Shown here: piece after piece, positions 1 through 4,909 of the stretch | How positions within the stretch are numbered: the stretch's first letter is position 1 | Layout of the letters: every line of letters begins with the position of its first letter | Origin: a virus | Taxonomy: Duplodnaviria > Heunggongvirae > Uroviricota > Caudoviricetes | Strand: one strand, 5' to 3' | Length of the DNA: 6,021 nt | Virus record (IMG/VR): IMGVR_UViG_2671180758_000013 | Notes under the pieces: model-generated | Told to the model about the DNA's origin: nothing | Database searches by the model: none | What the model saw: the letters and a program-made list of their open reading frames with translations, nothing else | Translations under genes and position numbers: made by a program

Positions 1-491
1 CGCTGATTGCCGCAGGTGCGCCTGCGCCTGAAATCCTCGACCAGTTTCTGGATGAAAAGGAAGGTAACCACACCACGGCATACCGTGATGGTGCGGGTAT
101 CTGGACCATCTGCCGTGGAGCCACCCGGGTGGATGGTAAGCCTGTCCTCCCGGGCATGAAGTTGTCGAAGGAAAAATGCGACCAGGTTAACGCCATTGAA
201 CGTGATAAGGCGCTGGCATGGGTGGCGAAAAACATCAGAGTGCCACTGACCGAACCCCAGAAAGCGGGTATTGCGTCATTCTGTCCGTACAACATTGGTC
301 CCGGTAAGTGTTTCCCGTCTACGTTTTACAGACGAATTAATGCAGGTGATCGAAAAGGTGCCTGCGAAGCGATTCGCTGGTGGATTAAGGACGGTGGCAG
401 AGACTGCCGTATTCGTTCAAACAACTGTTACGGTCAGGTATCCCGTCGTGACCAGGAGAGCGCGCTGGCGTGCTGGGGAATTGACAGATAA
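1..491 (+). CDS. Endolysin, GH24 phage lysozyme (T4/P21/P22 type), 5'-truncated by window start
   Basis: Open in frame 3 from nt 3 to stop TAA at 489-491 (listed ORF 129..491 is the same frame from an internal Met). Translation LIAAGAPAPEILDQFLDEKEGNHTTAYRDGAGIWTICRGATRVDGK... has the E-x8-D-x5-T catalytic spacing of true lysozymes. The hydrophobic LIAAGAPAP at the window edge may be the end of a signal-anchor-release domain. Not the lambda R transglycosylase type. Confidence 0.9.
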   Translation, partial: LIAAGAPAPEILDQFLDEKEGNHTTAYRDGAGIWTICRGATRVDGKPVLPGMKLSKEKCDQVNAIERDKALAWVAKNIRVPLTEPQKAGIASFCPYNIGPGKCFPSTFYRRINAGDRKGACEAIRWWIKDGGRDCRIRSNNCYGQVSRRDQESALACWGIDR

Positions 492-581
492 GCAGAATAT
501 TTTGCTGAAAAATGCGGTTTGCTCACACGGGCGGATAACACGAAATCCTGCGAACTGGCAAAAACTAAGTGAATAAAAGTA

Positions 582-619
582 AAACCCCGTTTGTTGGCCG
601 CAAGCGGGGTTTTGTGTTT
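582..619. terminator. Rho-independent terminator-like hairpin, possibly bidirectional
   Basis: AAACCCCGTTTG (582-593) pairs with CAAGCGGGGTTT (601-612) around a 7-nt loop, followed by TTTTGTGTTT. The reverse complement is also followed by a U-rich run (UUUUACUUUUAUU). Confidence 0.55.
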
Positions 620-685
620 CCTGACTCCGGAAAAGTCAAAGGAGAAAGTGTGTTTGATTTTAGCAAACTGATTCGGGAGATTCGA

Positions 686-787
686 ATGATGGCTGAAAAA
701 TTATCCACCTGGAAGTTCATCCTTATCTGGCTGGTGTTTGTGATTATGGCTTCCGGTTATTTCATTGGTCAGATACGCTGGTGGTGA
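686..787 (+). CDS. Hypothetical small membrane protein (33 aa; 45 aa if started at GTG 650), single predicted transmembrane helix
   Basis: GGGAGA (675-680) lies 5 nt before ATG 686; an alternative in-frame GTG at 650 follows GGAG (641-644). Product MMAEKLSTWKFILIWLVFVIMASGYFIGQIRWW has an 18-residue hydrophobic core. Stop TGA 785-787 is 1 nt before the Rz ATG at 789. Lambda has no gene at this position (from memory). No homolog recognised. Confidence 0.4.
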   Translation: MMAEKLSTWKFILIWLVFVIMASGYFIGQIRWW

Positions 788-788
788 A

Positions 789-1256
789 ATGAACCGCGTA
801 CTGTGCGTGGTCATCATTGCCCTGCTGGTGGCCTGTGGTGCGCTTAGTCTGGGGCTGAATCATTACCGTGATAACGCCATAACCTACAAAGAGCAGCGCG
901 ATAAAAAAGTCAGTGAGCTGGAGCTGGCAAATGCAACCATTACTGATATGCAGGTGCGCCAGCGCGATGTTGCTGCGCTCGATGCAAAATACTCGAGGGA
1001 ATTAGCCGATGCGAGAGCTGAAAATGAAACTCTGCGTGCTGATGTTGCCGCTGGTCGTAAGCGCCTGCGGATCAACGCCACCTGCTCCGGTACCGTGCGT
1101 GAAGCCACCGGCACCTCCGGAATGGATAATGCAACCGGCCCCCGACTGGCAGACACCGCTGAACGGGATTATTTCACCCTCAGAGAGCGGTTGATGACAA
1201 TGCAGAAGCAACTGGAAGGGGCACAGGACTATATCCGCACTCAGTGCCTGAAATAA
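789..1256 (+). CDS. Rz: Rz i-spanin (inner-membrane spanin subunit)
   Basis: 155-aa product MNRVLCVVIIALLVACGALSLGLNHYRDNAITYKEQRD...LEGAQDYIRTQCLK closely resembles lambda Rz (NHYRDNAITYK, RQRDVAALDAKY, DTAERDYFTLRERL, MQKQLEG), with an N-terminal TM segment. The track ORF 765..1256 begins at a TTG; ATG 789 matches the lambda N-terminus. Confidence 0.93.
   Translation: MNRVLCVVIIALLVACGALSLGLNHYRDNAITYKEQRDKKVSELELANATITDMQVRQRDVAALDAKYSRELADARAENETLRADVAAGRKRLRINATCSGTVREATGTSGMDNATGPRLADTAERDYFTLRERLMTMQKQLEGAQDYIRTQCLK
1009..1194 (+). CDS. Rz1: Rz1 o-spanin (outer-membrane lipoprotein), embedded in the +1 frame of Rz
   Basis: 61-aa product MRELKMKLCVLMLPLVVSACGSTPPAPVPCVKPPAPPEWIMQPAPDWQTPLNGIISPSESG has a signal peptide with lipobox (VVSAC), a proline-rich mature region and the C-terminal motif WQTPLNGIISPSE shared with lambda Rz1. 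It lies wholly inside Rz in another frame, as in lambda. Confidence 0.9.
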   Translation: MRELKMKLCVLMLPLVVSACGSTPPAPVPCVKPPAPPEWIMQPAPDWQTPLNGIISPSESG

Positions 1257-1516
1257 GTTTTGTTGATGCGCCGTATCGTCGCTGTATTCCCTCATTAACA
1301 GAGACCGCAGCCCGACAGGGAGACTCCTCTGCGCGAGTGTGCGGGGATAATCAAAAACGATACACACCGGGGTTTACCGCGTTAACGGAGCGCGGCGTTG
1401 TCCCCTCATAGTCGCCTGTCCGGTGCGATGGTGGAAGAAGCCGGATGTTTATCACTATTAATTGATGACACAGAAATGGATTCATTGAATTTCAGCACGT
1501 TTTTGTATTCGTGTTA

Positions 1517-1556
1517 TTGAACATCTGTTTATTTTACTTTTAACATATTGATAATA
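1517..1556 (+). promoter_or_regulatory. Candidate sigma70-type promoter in AT-rich island, upstream of small ORF 1607-1747
   Basis: TTGAAC (1517-1522) with TAACAT 18 bp downstream, and an extended -10-like TGATAATAA (1549-1557) about 50 bp upstream of ATG 1607. Pattern-based only. Confidence 0.2.
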
Positions 1557-1606
1557 AAAAGAGCTGTAAATCTTTAGATGAGTCGATTTTGTCCGGGGAA
1601 GTTCAA

Positions 1607-1747
1607 ATGGATTTTATGCTGACGGTTTCTGGTGTGGTTATCCTGTCCATTGCTTATACTGCAGATAAATATGGCTGCCATTTGTTATCACGTATTGGCG
1701 CTTATTGTTCGTTGATGCTGATTTTCTCGTCGCTTTTTTTTGAGTAA
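1607..1747 (+). CDS. Hypothetical small hydrophobic protein (46 aa, two short hydrophobic segments)
   Basis: ATG 1607 is preceded by GGGGAAG (1594-1600); stop TAA 1745-1747. Product MDFMLTVSGVVILSIAYTADKYGCHLLSRIGAYCSLMLIFSSLFFE. Below the ORF-track length cutoff; sits in the AT-rich island, convergent with the RHH gene. A 46-codon open frame in AT-rich DNA is only weakly significant. Confidence 0.3.
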   Translation: MDFMLTVSGVVILSIAYTADKYGCHLLSRIGAYCSLMLIFSSLFFE

Positions 1748-1879
1748 GTTATATTAATTATAACAAATAATTTTCTGTGTTATTTTTTCAGGCTATCCCG
1801 TCAGAGGGGAAGCCTGTACTGCCGGGGAGCGAATGGAAAACTGATGTGTCCGGTAACTGCGTGTTCTGTGAACACCATG

Positions 1880-2065
1880 TTACTTAATTATGTAATTCAT
1901 ACCCGAACTCTCTGTTGACAGCCTTCTTCTGCAGGCTTCAATAACCCACGCTGAAAAGTTTCCTGAACCTTTCAGATCAAGAGCGATGTTAATTTGTTCA
2001 ATCATCTGGTTTGGAAATCGGATGTTGCGGGTTGTTGTTCTGCGGGTTCTGTTCTTTGATGACAT
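1880..2065 (-). CDS. Small ribbon-helix-helix (Arc/MetJ-like) DNA-binding protein, probably YlcI/YnfO family (DUF3950), 61 aa
   Basis: Minus-strand ORF with ATG (complement of 2063-2065) 5 nt after GGGGAA. Product MSSKNRTRRTTTRNIRFPNQMIEQINIALDLKGSGNFSAWVIEACRRRLSTESSGMNYIIK has a basic N-terminal arm, a beta-strand (NIRFP), helix A, a G-S-G-N turn and helix B, the RHH pattern seen in Arc/CopG. From memory, similar small proteins sit near the cos-proximal right end of lambda and next to the Nu1 homologs of E. coli cryptic prophages (ylcI/ynfO); unverified here. Confidence 0.7.
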   Translation of the reverse strand: MSSKNRTRRTTTRNIRFPNQMIEQINIALDLKGSGNFSAWVIEACRRRLSTESSGMNYIIK

Positions 2066-2122
2066 AATGTTTCCCCATATTCAGTGTTGCTGATTTGTAT
2101 TATCTGAAGTTGCTTTTACGTT

Positions 2123-2164
2123 AATTTGACGCAGATCAATTAATACGATACCTGCGTCATAATT
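2123..2164. repeat. Imperfect inverted repeat (12-13-bp arms, 17-bp spacer), candidate protein-binding site
   Basis: AATTTGACGCAG (2123-2134), 17-bp spacer, CTGCGTCATAATT (2152-2164); the core TGACGCAG/CTGCGTCA is a perfect 8-bp inverted repeat. It lies 60-100 bp upstream of the RHH start codon on the minus strand and about 110-150 bp upstream of cosN. Confidence 0.5.
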
Positions 2165-2220
2165 GATTATTTCTCGTGGTTTGATGGCGTACACACATGT
2201 TGTGATAAACCTTATATAGA

Positions 2221-2380: not shown

Positions 2381-2395
2381 GGTCCGACATGAAAG
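2381..2395 (-). promoter_or_regulatory. Candidate R2-like terminase-binding element, inverted (GGTCCGACATGAAAG)
   Basis: Its reverse complement, CTTTCATGTCGGACC, matches the R1 element TTTTCATGTCGGGCC at 13 of 15 positions. A partial direct repeat GTCCGAAAATG follows at 2397-2407. Confidence 0.45.
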
Positions 2396-2420
2396 TGTCC
2401 GAAAATGCCTTTTTCTGGCG

Positions 2421-2435
2421 TTTTCATGTCGGGCC
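2421..2435 (+). promoter_or_regulatory. Candidate R1-like terminase-binding element (TTTTCATGTCGGGCC)
   Basis: Inverted partner of 2381-2395, located 26-40 bp upstream of the Nu1 start codon. Confidence 0.45.
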
Positions 2436-2460
2436 TTGTATTTGATAATGGGTTGTTTTC

Positions 2461-3009
2461 ATGAAGGTTAATAAAAAGAGGCTTGCCGAAATTTTCAACG
2501 TGGACCCGCGGACGATTGAACGCTGGCAGTCTCAGGGACTCCCTTGCGCCTCCAAAGGTAGTAAGGGCATTGAATCTGTATTTGATACTGCCATGGCAAT
2601 TCAGTGGTATGCGCAGAGGGAAACTGATATCGAAAACGAAAAGCTCCGCAAAGAACTGGACGATTTGCGTGCGGCAGCGGAGTCAGATTTACAACCCGGC
2701 ACCATTGACTATGAACGCTACCGACTCACAAAAGCGCAGGCAGATGCGCAGGAACTGAAAAATGCCCGTGAAGACGGAGTAGTGCTGGAAACTGAACTGT
2801 TTACCTTCATTCTACAACGTGTGGCACAGGAGATTTCGGGGATACTTGTGCGTGTGCCGTTGACATTACAGCGTAAATATCCGGACATTTCACCATCACA
2901 CCTTGATGTGGTGAAAACTGAAATCGCGAAAGCCTCCAATGTTTCAGCTAAGGCCGGTGAAAACGTGGGCGGGTGGATCGATGATTTCAGACGCGCAGAA
3001 GGCAGCTAA
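2461..3009 (+). CDS. nu1: Terminase small subunit (lambda Nu1 homolog)
   Basis: 182-aa product begins [28 protein letters not shown]... (lambda Nu1: MEVNKKQLADIF...RTIQNWQEQGMP, from memory) and shares [32 protein letters not shown]. The N-terminal winged-HTH region differs at several positions from lambda. Confidence 0.93.
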
Positions 3010-4909
3010 TGCAGCCGGTGCGATAGCTACAGGGCTTTTATCTCTCATTATTCCTGTTCCACTGACGACAGTTCAGTGGGCCAATAAACATTATTACCTT
3101 CCTAAAGAGTCGTCTTATACCCCGGGGCGGTGGGAAACACTGCCGTTTCAGGTTGGCATCATGAACTGTATGGGCAACGATCTGATTCGCACGGTTAACC
3201 TGATTAAATCTGCCCGTGTTGGTTATACAAAGATGTTGCTGGGAGTGGAGGCTTATTTTATTGAGCATAAATCACGCAACAGCCTTCTTTTTCAGCCCAC
3301 GGACTCAGCTGCTGAAGATTTTATGAAATCTCATGTTGAGCCAACGATAAGGGATGTTCCTGCATTGCTGGAGCTGGCTCCATGGTTCGGAAGAAAACAC
3401 CGCGATAATACGCTCACCCTGAAGCGTTTTTCCTCCGGTGTGGGGTTCTGGTGTCTGGGTGGTGCGGCAGCAAAAAACTACCGTGAAAAATCCGTGGATG
3501 TGGTCTGTTATGACGAGCTTTCCTCGTTCGAACCGGATGTTGAAAAAGAGGGTTCGCCAACCCTGCTGGGGGATAAACGTATTGAGGGCTCTGTATGGCC
3601 AAAATCCATTCGCGGCTCGACGCCTAAAATCAAAGGCTCCTGCCAGATCGAAAAAGCCGCTAACGAGTCGGCACACTTCATGCGTTTTTATGTGCCCTGT
3701 CCGCACTGTGGGGAGGAGCAGTATCTGAAATTTGGCGATGATGCCTCGCCTTTCGGTCTTAAGTGGGAGAAGAATAAGCCAGAAAGTGTTTTCTACCTTT
3801 GTGAGCATCATGGCTGTGTGATCCATCAGTCTGAGCTTGACCAGAGTAACGGGCGGTGGATCTGTGAAAACACGGGCATGTGGACCCGTGACGGCCTGAT
3901 GTTTTTCAGCGCCCGGGGTGATGAAATTCCGCCGCCGCGCTCCATCACTTTCCATATCTGGACGGCGTACAGTCCGTTCACCACATGGGTACAGATTGTC
4001 TATGACTGGCTGGATGCACTGAAAGATCCCAACGGCCTGAAAACCTTTGTGAACACCACGCTGGGCGAGACCTGGGAAGAGGCCGTGGGCGAAAAACTCG
4101 ATCACCAGGTACTGATGGATAAGGTTGTGCGTTACACGGCGGCGGTGCCTGCCCGGGTGGTTTATCTGACGGCGGGCATTGACTCGCAGCGAAACCGTTT
4201 TGAGATGTATGTCTGGGGATGGGCTCCGGGAGAGGAAGCCTTTCTGGTGGATAAAATCATCATTATGGGGCGTCCCGATGAGGAAGAGACGCTGTTACGT
4301 GTGGATGCGGCGATCAACAAAAAATACCGCCATGCAGACGGAACCGAAATGACTATTTCTCGTGTCTGCTGGGACATCGGGGGGATCGATGGCGAAATCG
4401 TTTATCAGAGGTCAAAAAAACACGGTGTTTTCCGGGTGCTGCCGGTAAAAGGCGCATCTGTCTATGGCAAGCCGGTGATCACCATGCCAAAAACCCGCAA
4501 TCAGCGGGGCGTGTATCTGTGTGAAGTGGGGACGGACACCGCAAAAGAAATTCTCTATGCCCGTATGAAAGCCGATCCCACGCCTGTGGATGAAGCCACG
4601 TCGTATGCCATCCGTTTTCCTGATGATCCGGAGATTTTTTCGCAGACAGAGGCGCAGCAACTGGTCGCGGAAGAGCTTGTGGAGAAGTGGGAAAAAGGAA
4701 AGATGCGTCTGCTGTGGGATAACAAAAAGCGGCGTAACGAAGCGCTGGACTGCCTGGTGTATGCCTACGCGGCATTACGTGTGTCCGTGCAACGCTGGCA
4801 GCTTGATCTGGCTGTACTGGCAAAATCCCGGGAAGAAGAGACGACCCGGCCAACCCTTAAAGAACTGGCAGCGAAGCTGTCCGGAGGAGTGAATGGTTAC
4901 AGTCGCTGA
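2981..4909 (+). CDS. A: Terminase large subunit (lambda gpA homolog)
   Basis: Long ORF with lambda gpA-like blocks throughout ([124 protein letters not shown]). Start placed at ATG 2981 (MISDAQK...), which gives the lambda-like N-terminal length and a 29-nt overlap with Nu1; the upstream in-frame ATG 2939 is an alternative. Confidence 0.93.

What the first reader, a model, noticed from the sequence alone, without database searches (positions are those of the whole stretch)
492..788. ~300-bp insertion between endolysin and Rz: terminator hairpin plus a small TM peptide gene coupled to Rz
In lambda and most lambdoid lysis cassettes the endolysin stop and the Rz start are nearly adjacent. Here they are separated by ~300 bp holding a strong GC-stem/U-tract hairpin (582-619) and a 33-45-codon ORF with a good Shine-Dalgarno sequence. 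Its product has one transmembrane helix, and its stop lies 1 nt before the Rz ATG, suggesting translational coupling. A small membrane peptide inside the lysis operon could modulate lysis timing or spanin function, or be an unrelated moron. A terminator inside the late operon would be silent under Q antitermination but could block other transcription.
Basis: partly seen in the sequence, partly recalled or inferred. Interest (0 to 1): 0.55.

Follow-up and report, generated by a model that had tools for sequence, protein, structure and literature searches.

The report
Portable terminator-plus-small-membrane-protein phage cassette
The ~300-bp gap between the endolysin and Rz genes holds a real 45-codon gene for a tiny membrane protein that always travels with its own upstream terminator hairpin, and because this unit also sits in tail and baseplate clusters of many temperate phages it is a mobile accessory cassette of unknown function, not a spanin-specific part.

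Summary
R ends at 491 and Rz starts at 789. The gap holds a 15-bp hairpin with a T-tract (580-622) and a 45-codon ORF (GTG 650 to TGA 787) that stops 1 nt before the Rz ATG.

The ORF is a real gene. It is annotated only as a hypothetical protein, belongs to phrog_6632 (function unknown), and has dN/dS of 0.08-0.34. Its predicted product has an N-terminal amphipathic helix and one transmembrane helix.

Homologues in Escherichia, Salmonella, Yersinia, Pseudomonas and metagenomic phages all carry the same hairpin 23-41 nt upstream, except one AT-rich locus. They lie between different endolysin and spanin families, after tail gene K, after the tape-measure gene, or in baseplate clusters. It is therefore a portable, low-GC, moron-like cassette and not a spanin accessory.

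No sense promoter was found. The start codon is non-ATG and the Shine-Dalgarno (SD) sequence is occluded by a covarying stem-loop, so expression probably depends on antiterminated late transcription.

One result is new but inferred from sequence only. Synonymous sites in codons 2-13 are strongly constrained. They encode a conserved extended -10 promoter on the minus strand. Together with the bidirectional hairpin, this predicts a ~80-nt antisense RNA covering the SD and start codon, as in type I toxin-antitoxin or P22 sas/sieB systems.

The protein's function is unknown.

The parts
3..491 (+). 3' part of the endolysin gene R (context; cut by the window start)
   Evidence: PF00959 Phage_lysozyme, E 1e-24. 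PGAP annotates it as 'lysozyme'.
492..569 (+). R-proximal leader. It is not part of the portable cassette and its function is unknown.
   Evidence: It is conserved in E. coli, E. albertii and partly in Salmonella. It is also kept in Sakai Sp15, where different cargo (ant) follows; there, homology to the window breaks at the 5' arm of the hairpin. It is absent from E. fergusonii, SEN34 and Pseudomonas copies.
570..622 (.). Bidirectional intrinsic-terminator-like hairpin. A-tract 570-583, stem 580-594/600-614, loop 595-599, T-rich tail 611-622.
   Evidence: Plus strand dG -21.3, z = -3.6; minus strand -15.1. It is present 23-41 nt upstream of the ORF in 15 of the 16 diverse loci (all but the AT-rich L122). 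In a set of 19 distinct hairpins, inner stems differ but stay paired.
617..645 (+). 5'-UTR stem-loop that occludes the SD. UUUCCU 617-622 pairs with AGGAGA 640-645, and GACU 623-626 pairs with AGUC 634-637.
   Evidence: Fold. Homologues keep a 4-6 bp stem abutting the SD through compensatory changes: CCTTG/CAAGG, CCATG/CATGG, CCATA/TATGG, TGACT/AGTCA, CTTA/TAAG.
639..644 (+). Shine-Dalgarno AAGGAG for the GTG 650 start
   Evidence: Read from the sequence. An AGGAG/GGGAG/GAGGAG motif is conserved in most homologues; L119/L121 and L141 lack a clear one.
650..787 (+). 45-aa gene of family phrog_6632: N-terminal amphipathic helix plus one transmembrane helix, predicted N-in/C-out
   Evidence: phrog_6632, E 8e-30. 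PGAP WP_000459342.1 'hypothetical protein'. 66 family representatives at 50% clustering. dN/dS 0.08-0.34. Structure and hydropathy.
675..691 (+). Candidate internal start: SD-like GGGAG 675-679 and the nearly invariant ATG 689-691 (Met14), which would give a 32-aa form
   Evidence: GGAG (enteric type) or GAGGT (Pseudomonas type) is maintained 7-9 nt before ATG14. E10 is GAG in 13 of 14 representatives. This is inference only.
657..685 (-). Predicted antisense promoter. Extended -10 TGcTAAAAT is the reverse complement of 657-665; -35 TCGAAT is the reverse complement of 680-685, with a 17-bp spacer.
   Evidence: It is the best sigma-70-like site on either strand, at the same (or, in L141, a 2-nt-shifted) aligned position, in 12 of 14 cluster representatives. 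Synonymous-recoding test: P <= 0.006 in 7 representatives and <= 0.035 in 9 of 14. Synonymous divergence pS is 0.0-0.55 in codons 2-13 against 0.4-0.85 in codons 14-45 in diverged pairs.
572..650 (-). Predicted ~80-nt cis-antisense RNA covering the start codon, SD and stem-loop, and ending at the hairpin plus its U-tract
   Evidence: It folds like a classical sRNA: dG -22.0, z = -3.45, 0 of 200 shuffles as stable. No transcript data were found. This is inference.
777..791 (+). Cassette/Rz joint: codons R-W-W (which include a Chi octamer at 777-784), SD-like GGTGG 780-784, TGA 785-787, A788, Rz ATG 789-791
   Evidence: The same TGGTGGTRA followed 0-4 nt later by ATG occurs in E. fergusonii (before a DUF2514 spanin), Salmonella, L118, L121 and L122.
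789..1256 (+). Rz i-spanin gene with Rz1 o-spanin embedded at 1009-1194 (context)
   Evidence: PF03245, E 3e-50, and PF06085, E 1.5e-19.

Best explanation
Window 570-788 is one copy of a portable late-operon cassette found in many temperate phages of Proteobacteria.

The cassette has four parts:
1. a GC-rich hairpin flanked by an A-tract and a T-tract, which looks like a bidirectional intrinsic terminator;
2. a short stem-loop that hides the Shine-Dalgarno sequence;
3. a weak (GTG/TTG) start;
4. a 45-aa gene (phrog_6632) for a single-pass inner-membrane protein with a conserved cytoplasmic amphipathic helix.

The last codons (..RWW, TGG TGG TGA) supply the ribosome-binding site and the stop/start coupling for whatever gene follows. 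Here that gene is Rz.

The cassette has no sense promoter of its own. The protein is therefore probably made only when antiterminated late transcription reads through the hairpin, and then only at low level.

The most likely extra control layer is inferred, not shown. An extended -10 promoter on the opposite strand inside codons 3-12 would make a ~80-nt antisense RNA that ends at the same hairpin and covers the SD and start codon. This RNA would keep the long form of the protein off in lysogens and early in induction.

This is the logic of a tightly silenced, probably membrane-active or toxic small protein (type I toxin-antitoxin-like), not of a spanin accessory. What the protein does in the membrane is unknown.
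For: Shown by tool results:
- The ORF is a conserved protein family. All 34 diverse members tested hit phrog_6632. An exhaustive HMM search finds 66 representatives. dN/dS is 0.08-0.34, with saturated synonymous sites in codons 14-45.
- The hairpin travels with the ORF in 15 of the 16 loci, from Escherichia, Salmonella, Yersinia, Pseudomonas and metagenomes. In a set of 19 distinct hairpins the inner stems differ in sequence but remain paired. Chimeric 5'/3' halves from different loci fold at a mean of -11.5 kcal/mol against -16.2 for native hairpins.
- Contexts differ: Phage_lysozyme/Rz (window; Salmonella); GH19 endolysin/DUF2514 spanin (E. fergusonii); after gpK; after the tape-measure gene; baseplate clusters; next to HicAB.
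- Cassette GC is 0.43, against 0.54-0.55 in R and Rz.
- K-12 Qin has no spacer between its endolysin and spanin genes.
- No conserved plus-strand promoter was found.
- The SD-occluding stem-loop shows compensatory changes.

Supporting the antisense RNA:
- The best promoter-like site on either strand is the aligned minus-strand TGnTAnnnT in 12 of 14 representatives.
- Codon choice favours that site beyond what the protein sequence requires.
- Synonymous divergence is 2-4 fold lower in codons 2-13.
- Ser5 is always AGC, Asp3 is GAT and codon 4 ends in T even in GC-rich Pseudomonas phages, and Arg12 is the rare codon CGA.
- The upstream A-tract is as conserved as the T-tract.
- The predicted RNA folds like an sRNA (z = -3.45).
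- An unrelated neighbouring cassette in E. fergusonii has TGcTAGACT on the minus strand at the same relative position.
Against: - There are no transcript, ribosome-profiling or phenotype data for any member. The literature and sequence-string searches found nothing.
- Sakai Hfq-CRAC sRNAs could not be mapped to the cassette. The two Sakai prophages examined, Sp10 and Sp15, lack it.
- The -35 element is weak (3 of 6 matches).
- The four most divergent representatives give no significant recoding signal.
- Synonymous constraint near a start codon can also come from selection for unstructured or AT-rich initiation regions, or from the internal SD.
- The hairpin is more stable on the plus strand in 12 of 19 cases, and markedly so in E. 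coli copies (-15.3 vs -9.2 for the core). Its main role may therefore be in the sense direction.
- In enteric lambdoid phages the cassette was seen only at the endolysin/spanin junction, always coupled to the i-spanin. A lysis-related role remains possible.
Confidence: 0.6

Rival explanations
1. Lysis-specific accessory. The peptide tunes lysis timing or spanin function, for example as an antiholin-like or holin-triggering membrane protein or as an Rz partner. Its position and coupling to Rz would then be functional.
For: - In Escherichia and Salmonella lambdoid phages the cassette sits at the endolysin/i-spanin junction with the same stop+1 nt+ATG joint. This holds even between a GH19 endolysin and a DUF2514 spanin.
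- It is a small inner-membrane protein with a possible dual start, which recalls holin/antiholin pairs.
- The hokW-sokW system of Sp5 shows that a small membrane toxin can assist phage release (PMC8621323).
Against: - Homologues of 42-84% identity lie in tail and baseplate clusters, far from lysis genes.
- There is no match to any holin, antiholin or spanin family in Pfam or NCBIfam.
- The R/Rz junction is a general cargo site that also carries ant plus unrelated small ORFs.
Confidence: 0.2
2. Classical lysogenic-conversion moron. The peptide would be made in the lysogen from a promoter not recognised here and would protect the host, for example as a superinfection-exclusion protein in the inner membrane like HK97 gp15.
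For: - It is inserted between genes that are adjacent in relatives.
- Its GC content is lower than that of its flanks.
- It lies among other accessory cargo such as Bro-N, KilA-N and HicAB.
- All hosts look like temperate phages.
- From my own knowledge, small inner-membrane exclusion proteins are known moron products (HK97 gp15).
Against: - No plus-strand promoter was found, and none is positionally conserved.
- A strong terminator lies immediately upstream, where a canonical moron has its terminator downstream.
- The start is non-ATG and the SD is occluded, which argues for very low expression.
Confidence: 0.12
3. No antisense RNA exists. The hairpin would be only a sense-strand terminator, insulator or mRNA-end stabiliser. 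The synonymous constraint in codons 2-13 would reflect translation-initiation requirements and an internal SD for a second start at Met14.
For: - The plus-strand hairpin is the more stable in 12 of 19 cases. Plus-strand MFE pairs include 19 G-U pairs, against 2 A-C mismatches.
- GGAG or GAGGT is maintained 7-9 nt before the nearly invariant ATG14.
- AT-rich early codons are common in bacterial genes (own knowledge).
- The -35 element is weak.
Against: - The internal SD does not explain the fixed GAT-NNT-AGC-AAR at codons 3-6.
- It does not explain CGA at codon 12 or the conserved A-tract upstream of the hairpin.
- The TGnTAnnnT site is the top-scoring promoter-like site on both strands at one aligned position in 12 of 14 lineages, and it recurs in an unrelated neighbouring cassette.
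Confidence: 0.35
4. The ORF is not translated, and its conservation reflects RNA or DNA function only.
For: There is no proteomic or ribosome-profiling evidence. Gene callers disagree on the start, giving 32, 45, 65 or 72 aa.
Against: - dN/dS is 0.08-0.34 with saturated synonymous sites in codons 14-45.
- Hydrophobic substitutions are conservative, and family-wide motifs (W21, K/R22, F23, G36, Y37) persist at 40% identity.
- The reading frame, length and a start codon are preserved in every lineage.
Confidence: 0.02

Closest known systems
Morons of temperate phages (Juhala/Hendrix concept; cited in PMC4104026 and PMC7067206)
   Same: It is an extra gene inserted between two late genes that are adjacent in relatives. 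Its base composition differs from its flanks. It occurs at known cargo sites (the R/Rz junction and the K/I tail junction) next to Bro-N/ant, KilA-N and HicAB cargo.
   Different: A canonical moron has its own promoter upstream and a terminator downstream and is expressed in the lysogen. Here the terminator is upstream, no sense promoter is found, and the 3' end is fused by translational coupling to the next late gene.
Type I toxin-antitoxin systems, e.g. hok/sok and hokW-sokW of Stx2 prophage Sp5 (PMC8621323)
   Same: The protein is small (under 60 aa) and single-pass in the inner membrane. The mRNA has its SD sequestered in a structured 5' region. A short cis-antisense RNA with a rho-independent terminator is predicted to overlap the translation-initiation region. 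The setting is a prophage.
   Different: The antisense RNA and any toxicity are only predicted. There is no sequence similarity to the Hok, Ldr, TisB, Ibs, ShoB, Zor or DinQ families. The toxin gene lacks its own promoter and sits inside the late operon. The domain order is an N-terminal amphipathic helix followed by a C-terminal transmembrane helix.
P22 sieB/esc with sas antisense RNA, and P22 sar RNA/ant (sas is cited in PMC7067206; details from my own knowledge)
   Same: In P22 a phage antisense RNA covers the upstream start of a membrane-protein gene that also has an in-frame internal start, so the RNA can switch between long and short products. The window has GTG1 plus ATG14 with separate SDs, and the predicted RNA covers only the first.
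   Different: The window's protein is much smaller (45 vs ~190 aa) and shows no homology. Both the dual start and the antisense RNA are untested here.
Lambda S / phage 21 S dual-start holins with the sdi RNA structure (own knowledge)
   Same: A small membrane protein encoded in the lysis cassette. Two candidate in-frame starts. An RNA stem-loop at the SD could set their ratio.
   Different: There is no holin family match. The extension is 13 conserved residues, not 2-3. Many homologues are not in lysis cassettes.
STnc6030 antisense RNA in late genes of Salmonella prophage BTP1 (PMC7067206)
   Same: An antisense RNA is made from within a late operon in the lysogen. It is proposed to silence late mRNA of incoming relatives, which is a form of superinfection exclusion.
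   Different: STnc6030 is over 700 nt long, was detected experimentally, and is not linked to a small ORF or a bidirectional terminator.

Membership tests
phrog_6632 (phage protein family, unknown function) | Significant match to the family profile over its full length | tested here: met
   E 8e-30 over residues 1-45 of 45. All 34 diverse homologues tested also match.
Moron | Inserted between genes that are adjacent in related phages | tested here: met
   rrrQ and rzpQ overlap in K-12 Qin. The cassette is present or absent at R/Rz, and other cargo occupies the same site in Sakai Sp10/Sp15.
Moron | Own promoter upstream of the gene | tested here: not met
   No plus-strand sigma-70-like site in 492-650. 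Plus-strand best sites are weak and not positionally conserved in the 14 representatives. Only sigma-70-type promoters were tested.
Moron | Own terminator downstream of the gene | tested here: not met
   In the window the ORF runs straight into Rz. The hairpin is upstream. A downstream terminator does exist in some tail-cluster copies (L026, L112, L113).
Moron | Expressed from the repressed prophage | not testable with these tools
   No transcriptome data for a strain carrying the cassette were located.
Type I toxin-antitoxin system | Small hydrophobic membrane protein (about 60 aa or fewer) | tested here: met
   45 aa. Transmembrane segment 24-42, Kyte-Doolittle mean 2.13. Helix 20-44.
Type I toxin-antitoxin system | Antisense RNA overlapping the toxin's translation-initiation region | tested here: inconclusive
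   Sequence evidence only: a conserved minus-strand extended -10, synonymous-site constraint, a bidirectional terminator and an sRNA-like fold. No RNA was detected.
Type I toxin-antitoxin system | Toxicity of the protein when over-expressed, neutralised by the RNA | not testable with these tools
   Requires an experiment.
Holin/antiholin | Match to a holin family, or at least one transmembrane domain plus a lysis-cassette location across the family | tested here: not met
   No Pfam or NCBIfam holin hit. Many homologues are in tail or baseplate clusters. The true holin lies upstream of the window.
Spanin component (Rz/Rz1, u-spanin) | Periplasmic coiled-coil domain with an N-terminal transmembrane helix (i-spanin), or a lipobox (o- or u-spanin) | tested here: not met
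   Only about 3 residues lie beyond the transmembrane helix and there is no lipobox (sequence). Rz and Rz1 are present separately.
Rho-independent (intrinsic) terminator | GC-rich stem-loop directly followed by a U-tract | tested here: met
   The stem is 15 bp including the A-U extension, dG -21.3, and the tail is UUUUGUGUUUCC. The reverse strand also has a stem plus UUUUACUUUUAUU. The simple scanner did not call it.
Rho-independent (intrinsic) terminator | Termination of transcription in vitro or in vivo | not testable with these tools
   Requires an experiment.
Known RNA families (Rfam 15) | Covariance-model match | tested here: not met
   No hit in 492-788 even at E <= 1.

The most novel reading that the evidence does not exclude
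The cassette would be a self-contained three-part switch that moves between phage late operons. In the lysogen only the ~80-nt antisense RNA is made. It blocks the long (45-aa) isoform and, through duplex cleavage and loss of translational coupling, dampens the downstream late gene of the resident prophage and of incoming relatives. This would be an RNA-based exclusion or late-gene silencer, like BTP1 STnc6030. On induction, antiterminated late transcription outruns the RNA and produces long and short (32-aa, Met14) isoforms of a membrane-active peptide, as in P22 sieB/esc-sas. The conserved '..WW-stop-N-ATG' joint, which is Chi-containing in E. coli and repeated at both ends of stacked cassettes in E. 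fergusonii, would be the splice point that lets such cassettes insert into any operon without breaking it.
Probability: 0.25. Interest if true: 0.75.

Novelty: new variant of a known kind. Interest (0 to 1): 0.55.

Why it matters
About one in six complete E. coli genomes carries this unit, including many Shiga-toxin phages (H-19B, Stx1a, Stx2a and Stx2c phages). Relatives are common in Pseudomonas aeruginosa prophages. Even so, the gene is annotated only as 'hypothetical' and has no literature.

The work shows three things:
- The hairpin and the ORF form one portable unit with conserved RNA-level regulation.
- The unit has an architecture opposite to that of the textbook moron: the terminator comes first, there is no sense promoter, and it is coupled to the next gene.
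- It probably encodes an antisense RNA.

Together these give a concrete, cheap-to-test model for how temperate phages add tightly silenced small membrane proteins to essential late operons without disrupting them.

If the antisense RNA is real, it adds a widespread class of prophage sRNA and a candidate type I TA-like or exclusion module inside late operons of Stx phages. If it is not, the family is still a well-defined target for small-protein studies of lysis timing or phage release.

Tried and rejected
- Rfam search of the whole window at E <= 1: nothing in 492-788.
- Pfam, NCBIfam and PDB sequence searches with the protein and with the family alignment: no meaningful hit. Only phrog_6632 matched.
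- The minus-strand promoter-like site reported by the scanner at 772..743 is not conserved in Salmonella or E. fergusonii. Rejected.
- The 72-aa reading from GTG 569 has unconserved N-terminal extensions and would start upstream of the hairpin. Rejected.
- PasA/PasC and AgvB/AsxR sRNAs lie upstream of the holin, outside this window. Not relevant.
- Tree et al. Hfq-CRAC sRNAs: Sakai Sp15 and Sp10 carry ant cargo and not this cassette. EcOnc22 maps to the I/J tail gap and EcOnc11 lies downstream of Rz. This gives no evidence for or against the antisense RNA. I did not establish whether another Sakai prophage carries the cassette.
- MAFFT plus RNAalifold could not align the variable inner stems and recovered only the invariant outer stem. 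I replaced it with per-sequence folds and a chimera control.
- The G-U versus A-C count, intended to decide which strand's hairpin is selected, leans to the plus strand. It is biased by folding the plus strand first, and the energies are near-symmetric overall.
The viral scan with A3 returned only near-identical E. coli copies.
- Literature searches for the peptide sequence, accession or PHROG id, and for small ORFs between endolysin and spanin, found nothing.
Full report
**1. What is in the window**

The window is the late region of a phage-21/H-19B-type lambdoid prophage of E. coli. It is 100% identical over 440-840 to several chromosomes and 98.8-99.5% identical to H-19B and to Stx2a and Stx2c phages.

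- The endolysin (PF00959) stops at 491.
- Rz (PF03245) runs from 789 to 1256, with Rz1 (PF06085) embedded at 1009-1194.
- The 297-nt gap contains a hairpin: arms 580-594 and 600-614, loop 595-599. Its dG is -21.3 kcal/mol, z = -3.6, and it is followed by TTTTGTGTTTCC.
- The gap also contains an ORF from GTG 650 to TGA 785-787. AAGGAG lies 5 nt upstream. The stop is separated from the Rz ATG by one base.
- In K-12 Qin the endolysin and spanin genes overlap, so the spacer really is extra DNA.

**2. The ORF is a gene**

PGAP annotates it as a 45-aa hypothetical protein, WP_000459342.1. It matches phrog_6632, a 45-aa family of unknown function, at E 8e-30. It has no Pfam, NCBIfam or PDB relative.

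An indexed search and an exhaustive HMM search found relatives in Escherichia, Shigella, Salmonella, Yersinia, Pseudomonas and metagenomes. There are 66 representatives at 50% clustering. All 34 diverse members tested hit phrog_6632.

Pairwise Nei-Gojobori estimates give dN/dS of 0.08-0.34, with synonymous sites saturated in codons 14-45.

The product has a conserved N-terminal motif, xDFSK(L/I)IRE(I/V/L)RxM(A/T)(E/D)KL. This is predicted to form an amphipathic helix (hydrophobic moment 0.52; 5% of shuffles reach it). A break follows at residues 18-19, then one transmembrane helix (residues 24-42, Kyte-Doolittle mean 2.13; AlphaFold helices 4-17 and 20-44, pLDDT 81). Positive charges cluster on the N-terminal side, so the predicted topology is N-in/C-out.

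The 72-aa reading from GTG 569 is not conserved.

**3. The hairpin belongs to the ORF, and the unit is portable**

In 15 of 16 diverse loci a hairpin of the form AAAGCAAAACCCCG-[variable]-CGGGGTTTTT lies 23-41 nt upstream of the start codon. The exception is the AT-rich L122. Across 19 distinct hairpins:

- The outer stem is conserved and the inner stem and loop differ freely while staying paired.
- Core dG ranges from -7.7 to -21.6 kcal/mol.
- Chimeras of 5' and 3' halves from different loci average -11.5 kcal/mol, against -16.2 for native hairpins.
- L119 and L121 encode an identical protein with identical flanks but entirely different inner stems.

The contexts differ widely:

| Context | Source |
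|---|---|
| Phage_lysozyme / Rz | window; Salmonella |
| GH19 endolysin / DUF2514 spanin | E. fergusonii |
| After tail gene K (Prok-JAB/NLPC_P60), before I/J, often beside a Bro-N gene | P. aeruginosa and enterobacterial prophages |
| After lambda tail gene I | P. reactans (L112) |
| After the tape-measure gene | metagenomic phages |
| Myovirus baseplate cluster | Salmonella phage SEN34; Yersinia similis (84% identical to the window's protein) |
| Next to HicAB | metagenomic contig |

The cassette's GC content is 0.43, against 0.54-0.55 for R and Rz.

The ~80-nt stretch 492-569 is not part of the unit. It is kept in Sakai Sp15, where the cargo is ant plus an unrelated 48-aa transmembrane ORF, and homology to the window breaks at the 5' arm of the hairpin.

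The unit is therefore a moron-like cassette. A spanin-specific function is not supported.

**4. How it is wired**

*(a) No sense promoter.* The scanner finds none upstream. In the 14 cluster representatives the best plus-strand sites are weak and not positionally conserved. With a strong terminator directly upstream, the ORF can only be reached by readthrough. In a lambdoid late operon that means Q-modified polymerase. This step is inference from established lambda biology.

*(b) Translation is set low.*
- The start is GTG or TTG in most lineages.
- The SD is paired in a conserved stem-loop. In the window, UUUCCU 617-622 pairs with AGGAGA 640-645, and GACU 623-626 pairs with AGUC 634-637.
- Homologues keep a 4-6 bp stem through compensatory changes: CCTTG/CAAGG, CCATG/CATGG, CCATA/TATGG, CTTA/TAAG.

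*(c) The 3' end is an adaptor.* Many members end ..(R/K)WW, encoded as TGG TGG TRA, with the next gene's ATG 0-4 nt later. This is seen in the window, Salmonella, E. fergusonii, L118, L121 and L122. GGTGG then acts as the next gene's SD. The 1-nt junction with Rz is thus a property of the cassette, not of Rz.

**5. A probable antisense RNA (inferred)**

Synonymous divergence in codons 2-13 is 0.0-0.55. In codons 14-45 it is 0.4-0.85 in the same diverged pairs. Specific codons are fixed:
- Asp3 is GAT.
- Codon 4 always ends in T.
- Ser5 is always AGC.
- Glu10 is GAG in 13 of 14 representatives.
- Arg12 is the rare codon CGA.
- Arg9, Leu18 and Phe23 vary freely, even in GC-rich Pseudomonas phages.

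On the minus strand these bases spell an extended -10 (TGcTAAAAT, TGcTAATAT, TGcTATAGT or TGcTAAGAT) with TCGAAT, TCGCAA or TTCGCA 17-18 bp upstream.

A simple PWM scan shows this is the best sigma-70-like site on either strand of the 250-nt module, at the same aligned position (shifted by 2 nt in L141), in 12 of 14 representatives. Synonymous recoding with local codon usage reaches the observed score with P <= 0.006 in 7 representatives and P <= 0.035 in 9 of 14. The four most divergent representatives are not significant.

In the window:
- the -10 is the reverse complement of 657-662;
- TG is at 664-665;
- the -35 is the reverse complement of 680-685.

Transcription from about 650 would run through the complement of the SD and stem-loop. 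It would stop at the hairpin, whose upstream A-tract (AAAAGTAAAA) is as conserved as the T-tract and gives UUUUACUUUUAUU on the minus strand.

The predicted 86-nt RNA has a single-stranded 5' end, one stem-loop and a terminator. Its dG is -22.0 kcal/mol, z = -3.45, and 0 of 200 shuffles fold as well.

An unrelated cassette of the same architecture lies next door in E. fergusonii: a hairpin plus a 50-aa transmembrane ORF ending KWW. It carries TGcTAGACT on the minus strand at the same relative place.

Caveats:
- No transcript data were found.
- The -35 element is weak.
- The plus-strand hairpin is the more stable in 12 of 19 cases.
- Initiation-region effects could explain part of the constraint.

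**6. Possible dual start**

ATG 689 (Met14) is nearly invariant, whereas ATG 686 is not. It is preceded at 7-9 nt by GGAG in the enteric type, where codon 9 ends in G. In the Pseudomonas type it is preceded by GAGGT, where codon 11 starts with G and codon 9 is free.

The N-terminal 13 residues are nevertheless conserved at the protein level with conservative hydrophobic replacements, so the long form is made. A 32-aa short form is plausible but untested. The predicted antisense RNA would cover only the first start.

**7. Comparison with known systems**

- **Moron:** the unit works like one (an accessory insertion in a late operon). It fails two defining features that I tested: an own upstream promoter and a downstream terminator.
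- **Type I toxin-antitoxin modules:** it shares their logic, namely a small membrane protein, a sequestered SD and a short cis-antisense RNA. A precedent for a lysis-assisting role is hokW-sokW of Sp5 (PMC8621323). The RNA and any toxicity are unproven here, and there is no homology.
- **P22 sieB/esc-sas:** this is a precedent for an antisense RNA that selects between in-frame starts (mentioned in PMC7067206; details from my own knowledge).
- **BTP1 STnc6030:** this shows that an antisense RNA inside late genes can act as an exclusion factor (PMC7067206).
- **Holins and spanins:** it is not a holin or spanin by family or by domain features.

**8. Verdict**

The 'moron' alternative is the supported reading, and the gene family is uncharacterised.

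The cassette nature, the coupling adaptor and SD occlusion are well supported by comparative sequence analysis. Late-only expression is a reasonable inference. The antisense RNA is a specific, testable prediction, which I put at about even odds. The protein's activity in the membrane is unknown.

I rate this as a new variant of a known kind and of moderate interest.

Noticed in passing
window 376-383, 777-784, 824-831 (all + strand): Three Chi octamers (GCTGGTGG) lie within 456 bp around the R/Rz junction. One is formed by the R-W-W codons at the end of the small ORF. The expected number is 0.27 per window, and 1 of 200 shuffles reaches 3. This could relate to the mosaic hot spot at this junction.
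   Followed up: partly
L009 2686-2911 (E. fergusonii) and 3127-3142: A second, unrelated cassette of the same design lies upstream of the phrog_6632 one. It has a terminator hairpin and a 50-aa transmembrane ORF ending VKWW*. The 13-nt joint TGGTGGTGATATG is repeated at both cassette ends, which suggests cassettes stack at this joint.
   Followed up: partly
L142 23720-24760 (Sakai Sp15, minus strand) and L143 5285-6279 (Sp10): At the same R/Rz junction these prophages keep the ~80-nt leader (homologous to window 492-577). They then carry an antirepressor (Bro-N-type) gene and an unrelated 48-aa transmembrane ORF (ECs_5741 / ECs_1966) directly before Rz. A similar ORF follows the phrog_6632 copy in phiSTEC1589-Stx1c.
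   Followed up: partly
L119 vs L121, about 2920-3000: The two loci encode an identical protein (P0066) and have identical sequence on both sides of the hairpin. The inner stem and loop are completely different, and each is self-complementary. How such a swap arises is unexplained.
   Followed up: no
window 492-569: The conserved non-coding leader after the endolysin stop contains a small inverted repeat, GGATaacacgaaATCC (532-547). It persists whatever cargo follows. No promoter, Rfam hit or ORF explains it.
   Followed up: no
window 2381-2472: A long perfect-stem hairpin (GGTCCGACATGAAA...TTTTCATGTCGGGCC) lies just upstream of the small terminase gene. It gave only a weak Rfam hit (ncr1175, E 0.89, far below the gathering score).
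   Followed up: no
window 1257-2220; L143 6800-7340: Downstream of Rz lie a minus-strand YlcI/YnfO-family gene (1880-2065) and a 46-aa hypothetical ORF (about 1607-1747). In Sakai Sp10 the Hfq-bound peak EcOnc11 of Tree et al. maps to the equivalent Rz-downstream gap on the minus strand.
   Followed up: no
L142 6691-6932 (Sakai Sp15, tail I/J gap): The gap holds a 39-codon ORF preceded by a hairpin and followed by a terminator. The Hfq-dependent ~85-nt sRNA EcOnc22 maps antisense over that terminator. This is another small cassette with an antisense RNA in a late operon.
   Followed up: no
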